NCBI GenBank assembly: GCA_947589345.1
Contig: CANQAC010000001.1
Coordinates: 54,757-118,756 of the forward strand
Length of the DNA: 64,000 bases
From: an uncultured Akkermansia sp.
Lineage (GTDB): Bacteria; Verrucomicrobiota; Verrucomicrobiia; Verrucomicrobiales; Akkermansiaceae
Reading direction: 5' to 3'
How positions within the stretch are numbered: the first letter of the stretch is position 1; each line of letters begins with the position of its first letter. The notes under the pieces were generated by a model. That model did not search any database. It saw only the letters and a program-made list of their open reading frames with translations, and was not told where the DNA came from. Of this stretch, positions 24,508 to 54,354 are shown piece by piece. The translations under genes were made by a program, and so were the position numbers.

Positions 24508-26199
24508 TTGAATTCCTATGTTAAAATTGCGAGGATGCCATCTATGAAAGCATATGGGAATCTAGAAGAATTGCATTTGGTTTATGATGAAGTTTTCTTC
24601 CAAAAATTAATACAAGAAGAGATACTAGCGAAATACACTGGTTTTTACGTGACATCAATTGTCGCGTCTAGGGAATCAGAATCGTATAATATGTTAACTT
24701 TGATCGAAGCGACAGATGAAAAGGATTTTACACCACAGAAATTCCAACCTTTCTCGTTGTTTGAGAAAAAAGAGTGGCGATATATGGTGACCAAGCATGG
24801 CATGATTGTGGAGTCCATAGGAAAGAAGATATCAGAGGCAAGCAGACAAGGAGAGTGGAAGGAGGAAGAAAAAAGTTTGAAGTTTGGTAGATTAGAATTT
24901 TTAGGGAATTGGTATGTCCCGCCAGCTATGCAGGTATCGGAGGGGTTTCCTACTTCCCCCATCAGTATGATGTTGAGAGGGAAAGGCGAAGAGGGAGCCC
25001 ACATATGGGAATGGTCCGACTCTTCAGGGATGTTGTATTCTAAGCTTGTAGGTAATCCTCAATTGTTAAAAGAAATATCTCAACGGATTAAAAATCACTC
25101 AAATATATTAATAGATGAAATAACGGACAAAATCTCGAATTTAATCATTGCTCTGCCCGTAAAATGTTTGGAATGTGAGATAGAGGGAATTAAAGGGACC
25201 TTGGATAAAATAAGAGTACACCCGTGTTGGCTGAACGGTACAAAGCCACGCCCATTGCAGTTAATAGCGTGGAAAGAAAGAGACGGGATGCAGAGTATTG
25301 CCATAGAGAATGCTCGAGAGGATGGGACTTTTGTAGTTGCTAATAACGACAATAAAAAACAAAGGATTGCTTTATATGACGTAAGTAATAGGCTCATATT
25401 GTATGAGACTGGTACAACGATCATGCGTAATATCACAGCAAAATTTTCGCTTTGTGTGCGAGGGACAACAATATGTCGCCTATTTAAGAAGGAAGGAACC
25501 ATCGAAAAAATACGTTTGCCAATTAATCAAAAAATTCAAACTGGTTACACTGAACCTTTAGTGCTAGATGAGCCACTGCGTCGAAGGTTGTATCAAAGGT
25601 CTCTGGAAAAGCTGATAGAGAAAAAGCTATTCATACAGTATTGTCCCACTAGTGCTGAGCACCGCGATGCATTGCATAAGCAAGCAATAGAGGATATACG
25701 ATCTTTAATTACGAAGTATGGAGAGCGCAAAGTTTACCTATGGGATCCATACTTATCGGCTAATGATGTCCTTGAAACTTTATTTTATAACAAAAATAGC
25801 GGAGCGCAGATGAGAGCATTGACACGATTAAAGAGTTCTGAAGGAACGCATAAATCAGAGCTGATACGGCAGTATCATGATATATTGGATGCGGCGTGTA
25901 TCAAGCCCTTTGGTTTGAATATAGAATTCAGAGCTTCTGCTAATTCTCCTAACGCTGATTTTCATGATAGATTTCTGATGTTTCCTGATTTTGGGGATGA
26001 ACCTCTCGTTTGGTCGTTAGGAACGTCTGTTAACTCATTTGGTAGAGAACATCATATTTTTCAGCAAATCCAACATGCAAGACCCATCATTGATGCCTTT
26101 GAGGGGATGTGGGATAAACTACAGAATGAACGAAATTTAATCTGGAAGATTACTTCAGAGGAAGTCATTAAGAAGTATGGCGAGCCGTTGATTGAGTGA
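24508..26199 (+). CDS. 563-aa AT-rich protein with C-terminal phospholipase-D-like nuclease domain (resembles VPA1262-type proteins)
   Basis: C-terminal LWDPYL..., FHDRFL...WSLGTSVNSFG motifs; AGGAGG upstream of TTG start. Confidence 0.7.
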   Translation: MNSYVKIARMPSMKAYGNLEELHLVYDEVFFQKLIQEEILAKYTGFYVTSIVASRESESYNMLTLIEATDEKDFTPQKFQPFSLFEKKEWRYMVTKHGMIVESIGKKISEASRQGEWKEEEKSLKFGRLEFLGNWYVPPAMQVSEGFPTSPISMMLRGKGEEGAHIWEWSDSSGMLYSKLVGNPQLLKEISQRIKNHSNILIDEITDKISNLIIALPVKCLECEIEGIKGTLDKIRVHPCWLNGTKPRPLQLIAWKERDGMQSIAIENAREDGTFVVANNDNKKQRIALYDVSNRLILYETGTTIMRNITAKFSLCVRGTTICRLFKKEGTIEKIRLPINQKIQTGYTEPLVLDEPLRRRLYQRSLEKLIEKKLFIQYCPTSAEHRDALHKQAIEDIRSLITKYGERKVYLWDPYLSANDVLETLFYNKNSGAQMRALTRLKSSEGTHKSELIRQYHDILDAACIKPFGLNIEFRASANSPNADFHDRFLMFPDFGDEPLVWSLGTSVNSFGREHHIFQQIQHARPIIDAFEGMWDKLQNERNLIWKITSEEVIKKYGEPLIE

Positions 26200-26376
26200 A
26201 TAAGGGAGCAAGATTGGGAACTGATGATCCCCTTGTCCGGAGCTTCAGTTATTCGAAAATTTCTAATAACTGCCCCGGATGGGAAGAAGTACAATGTGAA
26301 TCACTACGGGTTGCAGATGGCGATAGAGGTGGGGTTCAAGGTGAACGAAGAAACTCATGCTTGAATGAATGGCTAA

Positions 26377-26546
26377 CGTATTCGGAATACGTATGTCAAG
26401 CCATCAGTCAGAAAAACAATCTTTTCTTTTCAGTGCCTTTCAAAATCAGGTCATTGCCTCCGGCAGAGAAAAACACTCAATTAGTGGTTGGCTTGCCGCT
26501 TCATGACGAGTGGGATACGATCAAAGTTATACGTATTCCGAATACG
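26377..26546. promoter_or_regulatory. Putative invertible promoter: 134-bp segment (26395-26528) between 18-bp perfect inverted repeats; OFF orientation
   Basis: IRL CGTATTCGGAATACGTAT (26377-26394), IRR ATACGTATTCCGAATACG (26529-26546); TTGACA on the minus strand at 26394-26399; TATACT at 26548-26553 outside the segment. Confidence 0.8.
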
Positions 26547-26580
26547 CTATACTTTGCTCGTCCAAGTGGACAACGATCCT

Positions 26581-27228
26581 ATGAAAAAGACAGCTATGAC
26601 ATTATTGGCGTGTGCCGCGCTTGGCGTCGCATACGGTCAGGAAGAGCAGCAGAAGAGCGGGTTCGGTCTCGAGCTGAACGCTGCTTATAACTTCGCGTTG
26701 AAGGATATTTCGAAAGCTGAAGAAGGGATTCCTGCTTTCAGGGCAGATACGTACGGGGTGGATTTGACCGCCGTGTACGCCTTCAACAAGAATCATGCCG
26801 TGAATATCCGCTTCGGCTACACAACGGGTGATGATGAGCATACGTTTTATGAGCCGGGATACTACCCGGAGAATCTCAAGGTAGAAGTACAGAATATCTA
26901 CATCATGCCCGGGTATCGTCTGACGACGCCGCTGAATGACTCCCTCAGTTTCTTCGGTGGTGTCAATATGGGCCTTGCTCAGACAAAAGGAAAGATTGAG
27001 GATTCCTGGCTGGAAGGGAGCTTCAGCGAGAGCAAGAGCAAGTGGGGCTTCGCGTGGAGTGTGGAACTTGGTGTGTCTCAGAAAGTGACCGAGACCGGCT
27101 CCGTGACTCTTGCCCTCCAATTGCAAGGACTGTACGGACGCCCTGATTTCGGGGATGAAGGGGAAAGCGCTAAGGCGGAAAGCCAGCTCAACCTCGGCGT
27201 GCGTCTGGGGTACAGCTGCCAGTTCTGA
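26581..27228 (+). CDS. Outer-membrane beta-barrel protein (OmpA/OMP_b-brl-like, ~8 strands), paralog 1
   Basis: Signal peptide MKKTAMTLLACAALGVAYG, alternating beta strands, terminal Phe (GYSCQF). Confidence 0.85.
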   Translation: MKKTAMTLLACAALGVAYGQEEQQKSGFGLELNAAYNFALKDISKAEEGIPAFRADTYGVDLTAVYAFNKNHAVNIRFGYTTGDDEHTFYEPGYYPENLKVEVQNIYIMPGYRLTTPLNDSLSFFGGVNMGLAQTKGKIEDSWLEGSFSESKSKWGFAWSVELGVSQKVTETGSVTLALQLQGLYGRPDFGDEGESAKAESQLNLGVRLGYSCQF

Positions 27229-27254: not shown

Positions 27255-27284
27255 AGGCGGGGCATAATATGCCTCGCCTTTTTT
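27255..27284 (+). terminator. Rho-independent terminator
   Basis: AGGCGGGGCAT-ATA-ATGCCTCGCCT followed by a T run. Confidence 0.85.
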
Positions 27285-27309
27285 GATTTTCCTCGCCGAA
27301 TCAATGGGC

Positions 27310-27339
27310 TTGACATGCGTATTCTGAGAGCTTTATACT
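27310..27339 (+). promoter_or_regulatory. sigma70 promoter of OMP paralog 2
   Basis: TTGACA-N18-TATACT. Confidence 0.85.
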
Positions 27340-27367: not shown

Positions 27368-28021
27368 ATGAAAAAGACAGCTATGACATTATTGGCGTGT
27401 GCCTCGCTCGGCATCGCGTACGGTCAGGAGGAGCAGCAGAAGAACGGGTTCGGTCTCGAGGTGAATGCCGCTTACAACTTCGCGCTAAGAGATCTTTCGG
27501 AAGGTAGTGAAGAGGTGCCTGCCTATTCGGTGGATACGTATGGTGTGGATTTGACCGCTCTGTACGCCATCAACGAGCATCATGCCGTGAACATCCGCTT
27601 TGGTTACACAGCGGGCGATGATGAGCATGCGGTGTATTACGAGGTCAGAGACTATGTTTTTCCGGTTAATGTAAAAGCAGAGATGGAAAATATCTACATC
27701 ATGCCCGGGTATCGTCTGACAACGCCCCTGACCGATTCCTTGAATTTTTTCGGCGGGGTCAATGTCGGTCTTGCTCAGACGAAGGGGAAGCTGGAGGCAA
27801 GCGCTTTTGGAAAGACATTGAGCGAGAAAAAGGACAAATGGGGCTTCGCGTGGAGCGCGGAAGTTGGCGTGACGCAGGAAGTGACCGGCACCGGCTCCGT
27901 GACTCTCGCCCTCCAAATGCAGGGATTATACGGACGTCCGACGTTTGATCAGGTGCTTGCGGGAAGACCCAGTTTTCAGCTCAACCTCGGCGTGCGCGTT
28001 GGCTACAGCTGCCGGTTTTGA
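27368..28021 (+). CDS. Outer-membrane beta-barrel protein, paralog 2
   Basis: First 36 nt identical to paralog 1; same strand pattern; ends GYSCRF. Confidence 0.85.
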   Translation: MKKTAMTLLACASLGIAYGQEEQQKNGFGLEVNAAYNFALRDLSEGSEEVPAYSVDTYGVDLTALYAINEHHAVNIRFGYTAGDDEHAVYYEVRDYVFPVNVKAEMENIYIMPGYRLTTPLTDSLNFFGGVNVGLAQTKGKLEASAFGKTLSEKKDKWGFAWSAEVGVTQEVTGTGSVTLALQMQGLYGRPTFDQVLAGRPSFQLNLGVRVGYSCRF

Positions 28022-53433: not shown

Positions 53434-54354
53434 TTAAAAAGTGCAGGAAAGGCCGCAGCGCACGGTGTTGTGGTATTGGCGGGGGGAGGAGTAGGAGGCG
53501 TCGTCCCATTCTTCTTGCGGGGCGCGTTTGGGATGGGCGGAGGAGCCGCTGAACTGATAGGCGGCAAAGAGGCCGATGTGCGGAGTGATGTTGTAGCGCA
53601 GGCCTATTTCTGCGGAGTAGGTGAAGGCGTAGTCGGAGTCATGCCATTTGATGGTGGTGGGGTAGTAACCTTCTGGTGCGCCAAGAAAGTTATCGTATTC
53701 TCTGCATTTGAGGCTGCGGGAGATGATGCCAATGTTGGCTCCGAGGAAGAGATGGGCGTTTTCCGAGAGACCAAAGGTGTAACGCAACCCCGGCATGAGG
53801 ATGAAGTCGGTTACCTTGTAGCGCTCGGAGTAACCATCATCCGAATACGTTAAGGAGTCGCTGCCGTAAGCAAAGCCGAAACGTATGTTGGCTGAGAGTC
53901 CCGAAGTGATGGTGCGTGCAACGGTGATATCTGCACCGTAGGTGTTGACTTTAGGGGCAAGTTCTTCCCAGTCTGCACGCATGATGGGGCGGGTGGCAAA
54001 GTTTGCGGATCCGGCTATCTCTACGGACCAGGGTGATGGGGTTGCTTTGGGCTGGGGAGTGGGAGCTGGTTGTTCTTGTGGGGGTGTTGCCGGAGTGGGT
54101 GCGAGGTTTTCCGGCGAGACCGGGGCGTAAGTGTAGCCAGCGAGGTTGAAGGTTTGCCCGGGGTAGACGTAGGTGGATCGGGTGGATCGTGACGCCGGGG
54201 AGGTGTTGATGGGAGCGTAGGTGTAGCCGGCAAGATTAAAGGCTTGTCCGGGGGTGACGGGACCCACGACAGCAGGGGTACAGGGGTATGCGCCTGCGGT
54301 GAGAGTACCTGCGACGAGCAGGGCGACAGCAGAGATTGTTGGGTGGTGTTTCAT
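53434..54354 (-). CDS. Outer-membrane beta-barrel protein, paralog 3, with N-terminal repeats and Pro-rich linker
   Basis: Same strand motifs as 26581/27368 (TYGADIT, NIRFG, LMPG.R, GANIG, YSAEIG); terminal GLSCTF. Confidence 0.85.
   Translation of the reverse strand: MKHHPTISAVALLVAGTLTAGAYPCTPAVVGPVTPGQAFNLAGYTYAPINTSPASRSTRSTYVYPGQTFNLAGYTYAPVSPENLAPTPATPPQEQPAPTPQPKATPSPWSVEIAGSANFATRPIMRADWEELAPKVNTYGADITVARTITSGLSANIRFGFAYGSDSLTYSDDGYSERYKVTDFILMPGLRYTFGLSENAHLFLGANIGIISRSLKCREYDNFLGAPEGYYPTTIKWHDSDYAFTYSAEIGLRYNITPHIGLFAAYQFSGSSAHPKRAPQEEWDDASYSSPRQYHNTVRCGLSCTF

What the first reader, a model, noticed from the sequence alone, without database searches (positions are those of the whole stretch)
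26377..26553. Invertible promoter (inverton) in the OFF orientation controlling an outer-membrane beta-barrel gene, confirmed internally by the paralog's promoter
Seen: a perfect 18-bp inverted repeat, CGTATTCGGAATACGTAT (26377-26394) / ATACGTATTCCGAATACG (26529-26546), encloses 134 bp. Each repeat is itself a quasi-palindrome (CGTATT-CGG-AATACG) with an asymmetric core. A TTGACA -35 lies at the left end of the segment pointing away from the OMP gene. A TATACT -10 lies just outside the right IR, and the -35 position currently reads AAGTTA. Inverting 26395-26528 gives ggcTTGACA-TACGTATTCCGAATACGC-TATACT-ttgctcgtccaagtgga...ATG. This aligns with the intact promoter of the tandem paralog, gggcTTGACA-TGCGTATTCTGAGAGCTT-TATACT-catcttgtccgagtgga...ATG (same 18-nt spacing, 11/18 spacer identity). 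Established: recombinase-flipped promoters drive phase variation of surface proteins in gut bacteria. Inference: a split-promoter ON/OFF switch in which the recombination site is the promoter spacer. No recombinase is encoded in this 64 kb, so it would act in trans.
Basis: partly seen in the sequence, partly recalled or inferred. Interest (0 to 1): 0.9.

Follow-up and report, generated by a model that had tools for sequence, protein, structure and literature searches.

The report
Akkermansia invertible promoter switch, OFF
A 134-bp DNA segment in front of a small outer-membrane barrel gene of a rabbit-gut Akkermansia is a copy of the flip-flop promoter switches already known in this genus, here in the OFF position; it is a good example, not a new kind of thing.

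Summary
A perfect 18-bp inverted repeat (26377-26394 / 26529-26546) brackets 134 bp. The segment carries a TTGACA -35 box at its left end, pointing away from the gene. A TATACT -10 box stays fixed just outside the right repeat. Flipping the segment gives TTGACA-18 nt-TATACT, the same layout as the fixed promoter of the tandem paralog at 27310-27339.

The organism is an uncultured Akkermansia. The switch belongs to the published Akkermansia inverton class (Jiang 2019 motif; "group 138").
- Seventeen homologous barrel-gene loci have the same repeat pair at -205/-49: 14 OFF and 3 ON.
- In 74 of 74 repeat pairs from gut Verrucomicrobiota, the variable 3-nt centre is complementary between the two arms.
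- The genome encodes eight paralogous tyrosine recombinases, none in this window. Two of them abut switches with the same repeat.
- Those two switches are seen flipped in contigs of the same strain.

This locus was seen only OFF, at about 4-5x depth in two samples, so flipping here is inferred and not shown. An ortholog in a sister species is locked ON.

Verdict: a real switch, a new member of a known kind, of modest interest.

The parts
26377..26394 (.). Left inverted repeat (IRL), CGTATTCGGAATACGTAT. The 15-nt core site is CGTATT-CGG-AATACG, plus 3 inner bases.
   Evidence: I1; same core as the recombinase-linked switch on contig C64
26395..26528 (.). Invertible segment, 134 bp between the 18-bp repeats (140 bp between the 15-nt cores), now in the OFF orientation.
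   Evidence: homologous segments on C2 (72%) and, inverted relative to the flank, on C16 (79%); inverted in ortholog L002
26394..26399 (-). -35 hexamer TTGACA carried on the segment. Its last A is the first base of the repeat. It now points leftwards, away from the gene.
   Evidence: conserved as ggcTTGACAta next to the repeat in 17 loci and in more than 70 Verrucomicrobiota loci
26529..26546 (.). Right inverted repeat (IRR), ATACGTATTCCGAATACG. In the ON state it forms the promoter spacer.
26548..26553 (+). Fixed -10 hexamer TATACT, outside the invertible DNA.
   Evidence: conserved as TAtACT/TACACT/TATCAT/TATAAT at the same distance in all homologous loci
26560..26571 (+). Conserved leader hairpin GTCC-aagt-GGAC, at or near the predicted 5' end of the mRNA.
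   Evidence: present in all 21 aligned leaders; GTCC/GGAC changes to GTCA/TGAC in L015 and L018
26581..27228 (+). Controlled gene OMP1: 215 aa, signal peptide plus 8-stranded outer-membrane beta-barrel.
   Evidence: PF13505 E=2.2e-15; AlphaFold2 pLDDT 82.6 with 8 strands; Foldseek hits OmpA-TM, Ail, NspA, OmpX, OmpW; dN/dS 0.19-0.25 against orthologs
27255..27289 (+). Intrinsic terminator after OMP1. It makes OMP1 and OMP2 separate transcription units.
27310..27339 (+). Fixed promoter of the paralog, TTGACA-18-TATACT. Its spacer keeps only the left half-site CGTATT, so it looks like a decayed, locked-ON switch.
   Evidence: (I2)
27368..28021 (+). Paralog OMP2: 217 aa, 70% identical to OMP1.

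Best explanation
This is a copy of the Akkermansia-type invertible promoter (inverton), sitting in the OFF state.

Proposed mechanism: a tyrosine recombinase encoded elsewhere in the genome binds the two 15-nt sites CGTATT-NNN-AATACG and exchanges strands across the matched asymmetric centre, inverting the 134-bp segment. The best candidates are the 323-aa enzyme on contig C64, whose own switch has the identical core site, and its 69%-identical paralog on C16.

The segment carries only the -35 box (ggcTTGACAta) flush against the site. The -10 box (TATACT) and a short hairpin leader stay with the gene. In one orientation the site becomes the 18-nt spacer of a complete sigma-70-type promoter, and the 8-stranded outer-membrane barrel gene at 26581 is transcribed. 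In the present orientation AAGTTA sits at -35 and the gene is silent or only weakly read through.

The result is phase variation of one member of a small family of surface barrels. In this genome OMP1 is switchable and OFF, OMP2 is constitutive, and the C16 copy is switchable and ON in the assembly.

Shown: the anatomy, the family membership, both orientations at homologous and orthologous loci, and active inversion of two sister switches in this same strain.
Inferred: that this copy still flips, which recombinase flips it, and the transcriptional consequence.
For: 1. Anatomy: searches confirm the repeats, the -35 and -10 boxes, and the absence of a promoter before OMP1 in the present state.
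2. Virtual-ON promoters: at 17 homologous loci plus the 4 fixed or single-site copies they align base for base (TTGACA, 2 nt, 15-nt site, 1 nt, TAnACT, hairpin, ATG 34 nt after the site).
3. Orientation: among the 17 loci with both repeats, 14 are OFF and 3 ON (L010, L013, own C16). L010 (ON) and L016 (OFF) share their flanks.
4. Ortholog L002: same left flank and the same OMP1-OMP2 tandem. Its segment is inverted (ON), and its right site has been converted to the paralog-type spacer.
5. Repeat centres: the three orthologs carry CGG/CCG, GGG/CCC and TGG/CCA, changed on both arms together. Family-wide, 74 of 74 pairs are complementary, with 22 different centres. Shuffled partners give a mean of 5.2 and a maximum of 15.
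6. Recombinases: eight paralogous tyrosine recombinases are encoded. The C16 enzyme abuts a same-family switch that drives an OMP paralog. The C64 enzyme follows a switch with the identical core CGTATTCGGAATACG.
7. Same-strain contigs with 0 mismatches: the C16 switch is inverted in run X4 relative to X1-X3. The C64 switch is inverted in X4, and both forms occur within sample S1.
8. An ON-form contig of a ~90%-identical locus, jointed exactly at 26395/26529, occurs in run X5.
9. OMP1 is intact and under purifying selection, dN/dS about 0.2 at dS 0.43-0.60.
10. Literature: this Akkermansia class has read-proven flipping, including a switch next to two autotransporter-domain genes (PMC11892184) and the cps1 switch (PMC13343947).
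Against: - No ON form of this locus was seen in the strain itself. X1, X3 and X4 contigs at 98% identity or more show only OFF, with no joints and no loose ends. Close relatives in X6 and X12 are also OFF. Depth is only about 4-5x, and Logan contigs drop rare variants, so this is weak negative evidence.
- The other recombinase-less switch of the genome (C2:95450-95619) is also seen in one orientation only, while both recombinase-linked switches flip. Orphan switches may therefore flip rarely or not at all.
- In ortholog L001 a recombinase homolog lies about 0.7 kb upstream. In the window that position holds a defence island that reaches to about 20 nt from the left repeat, so a cognate enzyme may have been lost.
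- No RNA data exist.
- No terminator was found between the co-directional upstream genes and OMP1, so OFF may be leaky.
Confidence: 0.75

Rival explanations
1. Frozen relic: a former inverton that is structurally intact but no longer flips in this strain. The cause could be loss of its cognate neighbouring recombinase to the defence-island insertion, or paralogous enzymes that do not act in trans. OMP1 would then be permanently OFF, or expressed only by read-through.
For: - Only OFF is seen in two samples, and in related strains of three further runs.
- The second orphan switch is also static, while the two recombinase-linked ones flip.
- L001 keeps a recombinase homolog upstream that the window lacks.
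Against: - Both 18-bp arms are still perfect, although neutral sites have diverged (dS 0.43-0.60) from orthologs.
- Known dead copies show what decay looks like: the outer half-site is lost in OMP2 and in L002.
- OMP1 remains under purifying selection.
- The identical core site is used by the active C64 switch.
- Read depth was too low to see a minority orientation.
Confidence: 0.17
2. Miniature mobile element: the roughly 170-bp unit with terminal inverted repeats and an outward -35 is a MITE-like insertion that landed in either orientation at different loci. It would not be a segment flipped in place.
For: Homologous segments with terminal inverted repeats occur at several places in the genome (C1, C2, C16, C64, C54). 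Hybrid promoters made from a -35 in a terminal repeat are well known for IS elements (own knowledge).
Against: - The unit sits at exactly the same distance from the start codon (-205/-49) in 17 loci across species.
- Loci with the same flanks differ in orientation, not in presence or absence (L002 against window/L001/L003; L010 against L016).
- Same-strain contigs show clean in-place inversion of the C16 and C64 units.
- Neighbouring genes are tyrosine recombinases, not transposases.
- No target-site duplication flanks the repeats.
Confidence: 0.03
3. Operator pair: the two 15-nt quasi-palindromes are binding sites for a dimeric transcription factor that loops the DNA, and the arrangement never changes.
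For: Each arm is a near-palindrome of the kind bound by dimeric regulators, and one of them overlaps the promoter spacer.
Against: - Operators have no need for the asymmetric 3-nt centres of the two sites to be reverse complements, yet they are in 74 of 74 pairs with 22 different centres.
- The interior DNA is found in both orientations.
- The fixed paralog promoter works without the second half-site.
Confidence: 0.03

Closest known systems
Akkermansia muciniphila invertons: the IR motif and promoter motif of Jiang et al. 2019 (Science 363:181) as quoted in PMC13343947 (CGGATT..AATCCG); 'inverton group 138' of PMC11892184; the cps1 capsule switch of PMC13343947
   Same: Same genus. Same site design of 6-nt arms around a short centre. 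A similar 140-160-bp invertible segment: the published example 2092093-2092109-2092267-2092283 has 17-bp repeats with 157 bp between them. A promoter-like motif rides on the segment, and surface-protein genes lie downstream; the published example lies next to two autotransporter-domain genes. The composite TTGACA-NN-site also occurs with CGGATT..AATCCG arms in A. glycaniphila, with a partner site 158 bp away.
   Different: The arms here read CGTATT/AATACG (T for G at arm position 3). Both variants and hybrids occur in this genome. The controlled gene is a small 8-stranded barrel of a subfamily that I found only in Akkermansia MAGs, most of them from rabbit gut. Flipping of this copy is not read-proven. 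The papers I could read call the motif on the segment a 'promoter motif'; I did not find them stating that only the -35 is mobile. Jiang 2019 itself is not in the library.
E. coli fimS switch with FimB/FimE
   Same: A short invertible promoter segment bounded by short inverted repeats. It is flipped by tyrosine recombinases, with several paralogous enzymes able to act on it, and gives ON/OFF phase variation of a surface structure (own knowledge).
   Different: fimS carries the whole promoter inside 314 bp with 9-bp repeats. Here only the -35 moves, and the recombination site is the spacer. The Akkermansia enzymes have Asp where XerD has the His of HxxR.
Bacteroides fragilis capsule promoter invertons (Mpi serine invertase; Tsr tyrosine recombinases)
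   Same: A gut commensal with many same-motif promoter switches spread over the genome. Most have no adjacent recombinase and are flipped in trans by a few enzymes (own knowledge; cited in PMC13343947).
   Different: Different phylum, different repeat motif, and a complete Bacteroides-type promoter inside the segment. The global invertase Mpi is a serine recombinase.
Neisseria Opa proteins
   Same: A multi-copy family of 8-stranded outer-membrane barrels with variable surface loops, each copy independently phase-variable (own knowledge). The fold class matches: NspA, OmpX and Ail are among the Foldseek hits.
   Different: Opa switching works by slippage of CTCTT repeats in the coding region, not by DNA inversion. 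There is no sequence relationship.
Hybrid promoters of IS elements (outward -35 in a terminal repeat joined to a resident -10; junction promoters of IS911 and IS30 circles)
   Same: A promoter is assembled only when a recombination event brings a -35 next to a -10 across the recombination site (own knowledge).
   Different: Those arise by transposition or circle formation and are not a reversible in-place switch.

Membership tests
Akkermansia inverton class (Jiang 2019 / group 138) | Inverted repeat pair matching the class motif: 6-nt arms CGGATT / AATCCG around a short centre. | tested here: met
   The arms are CGTATT/AATACG, one transversion per arm from the quoted motif. Pure, variant and hybrid arms coexist in this genome (CGGATTATGAATACG and others). 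Both arm types follow TTGACA-NN in named Akkermansia genomes. I compared against the motif as quoted in PMC13343947, not against the original logo.
Akkermansia inverton class (Jiang 2019 / group 138) | Short intergenic invertible segment of about 140-160 bp carrying the class promoter motif. | tested here: met
   There are 140 bp between the cores. Seventy-four pairs cluster at 138-144 bp in Akkermansia. ggcTTGACAta abuts the site. The published promoter logo itself could not be read, because it is a figure and Jiang 2019 is not held.
Akkermansia inverton class (Jiang 2019 / group 138) | Both orientations supported by sequencing reads from one strain. | tested here: inconclusive
   This locus is only OFF at about 4-5x in samples S1 and S2. 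Sister switches of the same genome are seen in both orientations with 0 mismatches. Only assembler contigs were available, not raw reads.
Akkermansia inverton class (Jiang 2019 / group 138) | Host is Akkermansia or a gut Verrucomicrobiota relative. | tested here: met
   All close relatives of the OMP gene are in Akkermansia MAGs. The composite motif with a partner site occurs only in Akkermansia, Opitutales, Intestinicryptomonas and Merdousia records.
Tyrosine-recombinase promoter switch (Fim-type) | A tyrosine recombinase that acts on the repeats. | tested here: inconclusive
   Eight paralogs with PF00589 are encoded. Two abut same-motif switches that do invert.
Tyrosine-recombinase promoter switch (Fim-type) | Catalytic R-K-H-R-H/W-Y signature in the recombinase. 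| tested here: inconclusive
   Alignment to XerD (1A0P) shows that R of box I, R of HxxR, the GH histidine and a C-terminal Y are present. Asp replaces the first His of HxxR (DVLRH). The alignment is weak (E 0.0014).
Tyrosine-recombinase promoter switch (Fim-type) | The partner sites share an identical asymmetric crossover region. | tested here: met
   The 3-nt centres are complementary in 74 of 74 pairs with 22 different centres. Changes are concerted among the three orthologs. The exact cleavage positions are unknown.
OmpA-like 8-stranded beta-barrel (Pfam PF13505 OMP_b-brl) | Score above the Pfam gathering threshold, a signal peptide, 8 antiparallel strands and a C-terminal aromatic residue. 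| tested here: met
   57.7 bits against a cut-off of 28.7. The AF2 model has helix 3-17 followed by 8 strands, pLDDT 82.6. Foldseek hits OmpA-TM, Ail, NspA and OmpX at E 1e-9 to 1e-5. The protein ends in ...YSCQF.

The most novel reading that the evidence does not exclude
Two-tier phase variation. Switches that sit beside their own recombinase gene (C16, C64) would flip often and set the level of recombinase. Recombinase-less 'orphan' switches with the same site, such as this one, would flip only rarely and only in cells whose master switch is in the permissive state. A single genome would then hold fast and slow surface-variation loci run by one enzyme family. The split promoter, with the recombination site as its spacer, would further let recombinase bound to the site act as a repressor of the ON promoter.
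Probability: 0.15. Interest if true: 0.55.

Novelty: new member of a known kind. Interest (0 to 1): 0.3.

Why it matters
Akkermansia is a candidate probiotic, and its surface variability affects colonisation, phage sensitivity and immune recognition. This locus adds a small Opa-like family of 8-stranded barrels to the list of its phase-variable surface molecules. It also gives an unusually clean natural series within one gene family: a switchable OFF copy, a switchable ON copy, and a decayed locked-ON copy.

The family-wide data sharpen the model of how these switches work. They show that only the -35 box is mobile, that the recombination site doubles as the promoter spacer, and that the 3-nt centre always co-varies between arms. 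The data also nominate a specific recombinase clade for testing. None of this changes the established picture that Akkermansia uses many promoter invertons.

Tried and rejected
- Direct proof of flipping at this locus. Logan contigs of 12 DNA runs were laid on it. The same strain shows only OFF. The ON-type joints found (X5 26395/26529; X9 loose end) come from loci about 90% identical, or from other loci, so they do not count for this strain.
- RNA evidence: no RNA run holds the gene.
- Public metagenome contigs: exact-pattern scans for the ON junction, and for the state-independent right junction, both gave 0 hits. The species is simply absent there, so this is uninformative.
- Link to the A. 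muciniphila type strain through the OMP: two protein-guided scans found homologs only in uncultured Akkermansia MAGs, most from rabbit gut. I could not tie this gene to the published switch at 2.092 Mb.
- Jiang et al. 2019 is not in the library. The class motif is taken second-hand from PMC13343947 and PMC11892184.
- 'Address code' idea, in which different 3-nt centres keep the switches of one genome from recombining with each other. Rejected: centres are shared within genomes (CGG at C1 and C64; TGA at C2, C16 and C54 here; GCA at many loci of one Lapin MAG).
- Contig breaks at switches as evidence of mixed orientation. Four of 204 contig ends hold 4 of 41 core sites, but near-identical recombinase paralogs could also break the assembly, and no overlapping partner contigs were found. 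This is kept only as weak support.
- Leftward function of the OFF promoter: the left flank offers only TAGCCA at the -10 position and there is no leftward ORF, so the switch is ON/OFF and not a toggle between two genes.
- More distant OMP paralogs (C1:108193-108810, C2, C54, C90) have ordinary fixed promoters and no repeats.

Full report
**What is in the sequence.**
CGTATTCGGAATACGTAT (26377-26394) and its exact reverse complement (26529-26546) enclose 134 bp. The repeat finder extends the pair to 21 nt at 95% (I1). Each arm contains the quasi-palindrome CGTATT-CGG-AATACG. Its centre is three bases long, so it can never be symmetric, and this gives the site a direction.

The left end of the segment reads TGTCAA on the + strand (26394-26399), which is TTGACA pointing left. 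TATACT lies at 26548-26553, one base outside the right repeat. The hexamer now at the -35 position is AAGTTA. Inverting 26395-26528 produces ggcTTGACA-18 nt-TATACT.

The tandem paralog has gggcTTGACAtgCGTATTCTGAGAGCTTTATACT. The repeat finder independently reports 26382-26402 as the reverse complement of 27307-27327 (I2). The consensus scan calls 27310-27339 an 11-of-12 promoter. It finds no promoter in front of the first gene as the DNA now stands, and it finds a terminator between the two genes.

**What the switch controls.**
The genes at 26581-27228 and 27368-28021 are 70% identical and both match PF13505. An AlphaFold2 model of the first has pLDDT 82.6, with a signal helix followed by eight strands. 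It matches the transmembrane barrels of OmpA, Ail, NspA, OmpX and OmpW. The positions that vary among homologs fall in three blocks of the alignment. By analogy with known 8-stranded barrels I take these to be surface loops; loop orientation was not tested. The gene is intact and under purifying selection against orthologs (dN/dS 0.19-0.25 at dS 0.43-0.60). It is therefore used, although assemblies show it OFF.

**Organism and family.**
The window lies in a 2.25-Mb, 54% GC, 102-contig genome. All relatives of the barrel gene are in uncultured Akkermansia MAGs, mostly from rabbit gut.

All 18 related loci carry at least the gene-proximal site at -49/-48 from the start codon. In 15 of them a partner site lies at about -205; L002, L006 and L012 show one site only. 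Written in their actual or virtual ON form, the promoters of 21 copies align without gaps: ggcTTGACAta, the 15-nt site, one base, TAtACT, a GTCC-N4-GGAC hairpin, and the ATG 34 nt after the site.

Among the 17 copies with both sites, 14 are OFF and 3 are ON (L010, L013 and the paralog on contig C16 of this same genome). L010 (ON) and L016 (OFF) share their flanks.

The locus orthologous to the finding in a sister species, L002, has the same left flank and the same OMP1-OMP2 tandem. Its segment is in the ON orientation, and its right site has been overwritten by the paralog-type spacer. It is a copy locked ON. The window's own second gene has the same decayed spacer. Decay of a dead switch is therefore visible in this family, and the finding's repeats show none of it.

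**Signature of site-specific recombination.**
The three orthologous loci carry centres CGG/CCG (window), GGG/CCC (L001) and TGG/CCA (L003). The base has changed on both arms together.

The loci were dominated by Akkermansia, including the cultured A. glycaniphila, and by gut Opitutales, Intestinicryptomonas and Merdousia. About 70 of them have a partner site 139-144 bp away in Akkermansia, 152-162 bp in Opitutales, or 127 bp in Intestinicryptomonas. The scattered hits in other phyla have none.

Over all sources, 74 of 74 site pairs have fully complementary centres, using 22 different triplets. Shuffling the partners gives a mean of 5.2 and a maximum of 15 matches. An operator pair or a hairpin would not need this. 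A recombinase that exchanges strands across the centre would.

**The recombinase.**
The genome has 12 PF00589 genes. Eight of these form one paralogous family.
- On contig C16, a 329-aa member lies directly beside, and divergent from, a switch of the same family (TGTATTTGAAATACG / CGTATTTCAAATACG). That switch is ON in the assembly and drives a 63%-identical barrel paralog.
- On contig C64, a 323-aa member (69% identical to the C16 enzyme) follows a switch whose core CGTATTCGGAATACG, and even its flanks, match the finding's left repeat.
- Three further members, about 90% identical to each other, are each preceded by their own repeat pair.

Aligned to XerD, these enzymes keep the arginines, the GH histidine and the tyrosine, but have Asp at the first His of HxxR. 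The alignment is weak.

In ortholog L001 a recombinase homolog lies about 0.7 kb upstream of the switch. In the window, homology to L001-L003 stops about 20 nt left of the repeat. It is replaced by a RhuM fragment and a VPA1262-N-domain gene, part of a defence island. This copy probably became an orphan through that insertion.

**Is inversion happening?**
Only assembler contigs of public runs were available, not raw reads. For the same strain (0 mismatches):
- The C16 switch is exactly inverted between the repeats in run X4 (sample S2), on one 421-nt contig: 2314-2507 forward, 2508-2674 reverse, 2675-2734 forward. Runs X1-X3 (sample S1) have the assembly's orientation.
- The C64 switch is inverted in X4.
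- Within sample S1, both forms of the C64 switch occur. A 1769-nt contig of X2 has the reference form. A contig of X3 runs from the left flank through the repeat into the reverse complement of the segment's far end.

The recombination system is therefore active in this population.

The finding's own switch shows only OFF in X1, X3 and X4, at 3.6-5.4x, with no joints or loose ends at 98% identity or more. Close relatives in X6 and X12 are also OFF. The other orphan switch (C2:95450-95619) is likewise seen in one orientation only.

An ON-form contig jointed exactly at 26395/26529 exists in run X5, but it comes from a locus about 90% identical. No RNA run holds the gene. The species is absent from the metagenome contig collection.

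**Interpretation.**
I am confident that this is a structurally intact member of the Akkermansia inverton class in the OFF state. The promoter is split across the recombination site. The enzyme must come from elsewhere in the genome.

I think it likely (about 0.75) that it still flips, catalysed by the C64/C16-type tyrosine recombinase. The reasons are that the arms are perfect, the centre co-varies among orthologs, the gene is under selection, and sister switches with the same site are active.

The main rival (about 0.17) is a frozen OFF relic. It is favoured only by the shallow negative read data and by the stillness of both orphan switches. A MITE-like insertion and an operator pair are both contradicted by the in-place orientation polymorphism and by the centre covariation.

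**Comparison with what is known.**
Akkermansia is already reported to hold the highest number of intergenic invertons per genome (PMC10028968). It has a published repeat motif and promoter motif (Jiang et al. 2019, quoted in PMC13343947 as CGGATT..AATCCG). Thirty-two same-group invertons are catalogued in the type strain, one of them next to two autotransporter-domain genes and drifting in orientation over mouse generations (PMC11892184). A capsule switch has been experimentally verified (PMC13343947).

The finding differs only in the following:
- a T-for-G arm variant, which coexists with the canonical arms in this genome;
- its target, a small Opa-like barrel;
- its host, an uncultured Akkermansia assembled from a rabbit-gut sample.

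The split-promoter reading and the centre covariation are useful refinements. I did not find them stated in the papers I could read. Earlier notes of this scan had already proposed the split promoter for other Akkermansia genomes.

**Verdict.**
This is a new member of a known kind. Interest is 0.3.

Noticed in passing
window 26560-26571, and the same position in L001-L018 and C16: There is a conserved leader hairpin GTCC-N4-GGAC just downstream of the -10 box of every barrel gene of this family, with one compensatory change (GTCA/TGAC in L015 and L018). It probably forms the 5' end of the mRNA. A stabilising 5' stem-loop like that of E. coli ompA is a possible role.
   Followed up: partly
window 27307-27339; L002:535-565 and 1317-1347: The paralog's constitutive promoter is a decayed switch. 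TTGACA and the left half-site CGTATT are kept, but the right half-site is replaced (CTGAGAGCTT). In sister species L002 the same spacer has overwritten the right repeat of the first gene while its segment was ON, giving a locked-ON copy, probably by gene conversion between the tandem promoters.
   Followed up: yes
G000 contig C16:7262-9145 (L028) and contig C64:1-1237 (L029): Two recombinase-linked switches of the same family are caught inverted in same-strain contigs. C16 differs between samples S1 and S2. C64 shows both forms within S1. In the assembly, the C16 switch drives a third barrel paralog in the ON state.
   Followed up: yes
G000 C2:48951-50145, C4:2724-3917, C13:44236-45261: Three tyrosine recombinase genes, about 90% identical to each other, each have their own repeat pair (CGAATTnnnAATCCG / CGGATTnnnAATACG) ending 8 nt before the start codon. 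Recombinase expression itself may be phase-variable. C13 ends exactly in such a repeat.
   Followed up: no
G000 recombinases C16, C64, C2, C4, C13 (also C6, C53, C21): A family of eight paralogous tyrosine recombinases. The five listed first have Asp at the position of the first His of the XerD HxxR motif (DVLRH).
   Followed up: partly
window 24508-26364: The left flank of the switch is foreign DNA up to about 20 nt from the repeat. It holds a 563-aa gene with a VPA1262 N-terminal domain (NF040700, E=5.6e-50) and a 46-aa RhuM fragment. In ortholog L001 a recombinase homolog lies in this upstream region instead.
   Followed up: partly
G000 C2:95450-95619 (L177:351-520): A second orphan switch of the same family, with the TGA centre, sits OFF-like in front of a 377-aa ORF that starts near C2:95662. 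Only one orientation is seen in runs X1-X3; X4 contigs do not cover the switch.
   Followed up: partly
L055, L056, L059, L068, L082, L084, L085, L117 (Opitutales, Merdousia); L035, L066, L080, L107 (Intestinicryptomonas porci): The same TTGACA-NN-CGTATTnnnAATACG composite, with a complementary partner site, occurs in other gut Verrucomicrobiota at characteristic spacings (152-162 bp and 127 bp). In the Opitutales and Merdousia loci the site is followed directly by ATGGACAC or ATGAACAC.
   Followed up: no
window 53437-54054 (-): There is a third, distant barrel paralog (28% identical). Its N-terminal region has a repeated Pro/Thr-rich stretch. It has no repeat pair upstream. Another first-stage note reports a G/C homopolymer beside its promoter.
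   Followed up: no
G000 contig ends C54:1-77, C64:1-77, C13 end, C19 end; L006 start: Contigs tend to begin or end at these repeats: 4 of 204 ends hold 4 of 41 core sites. C54 and C64 both begin exactly 77 nt before the inner edge of a repeat, as expected if a k=77 assembly graph branched there.
   Followed up: partly
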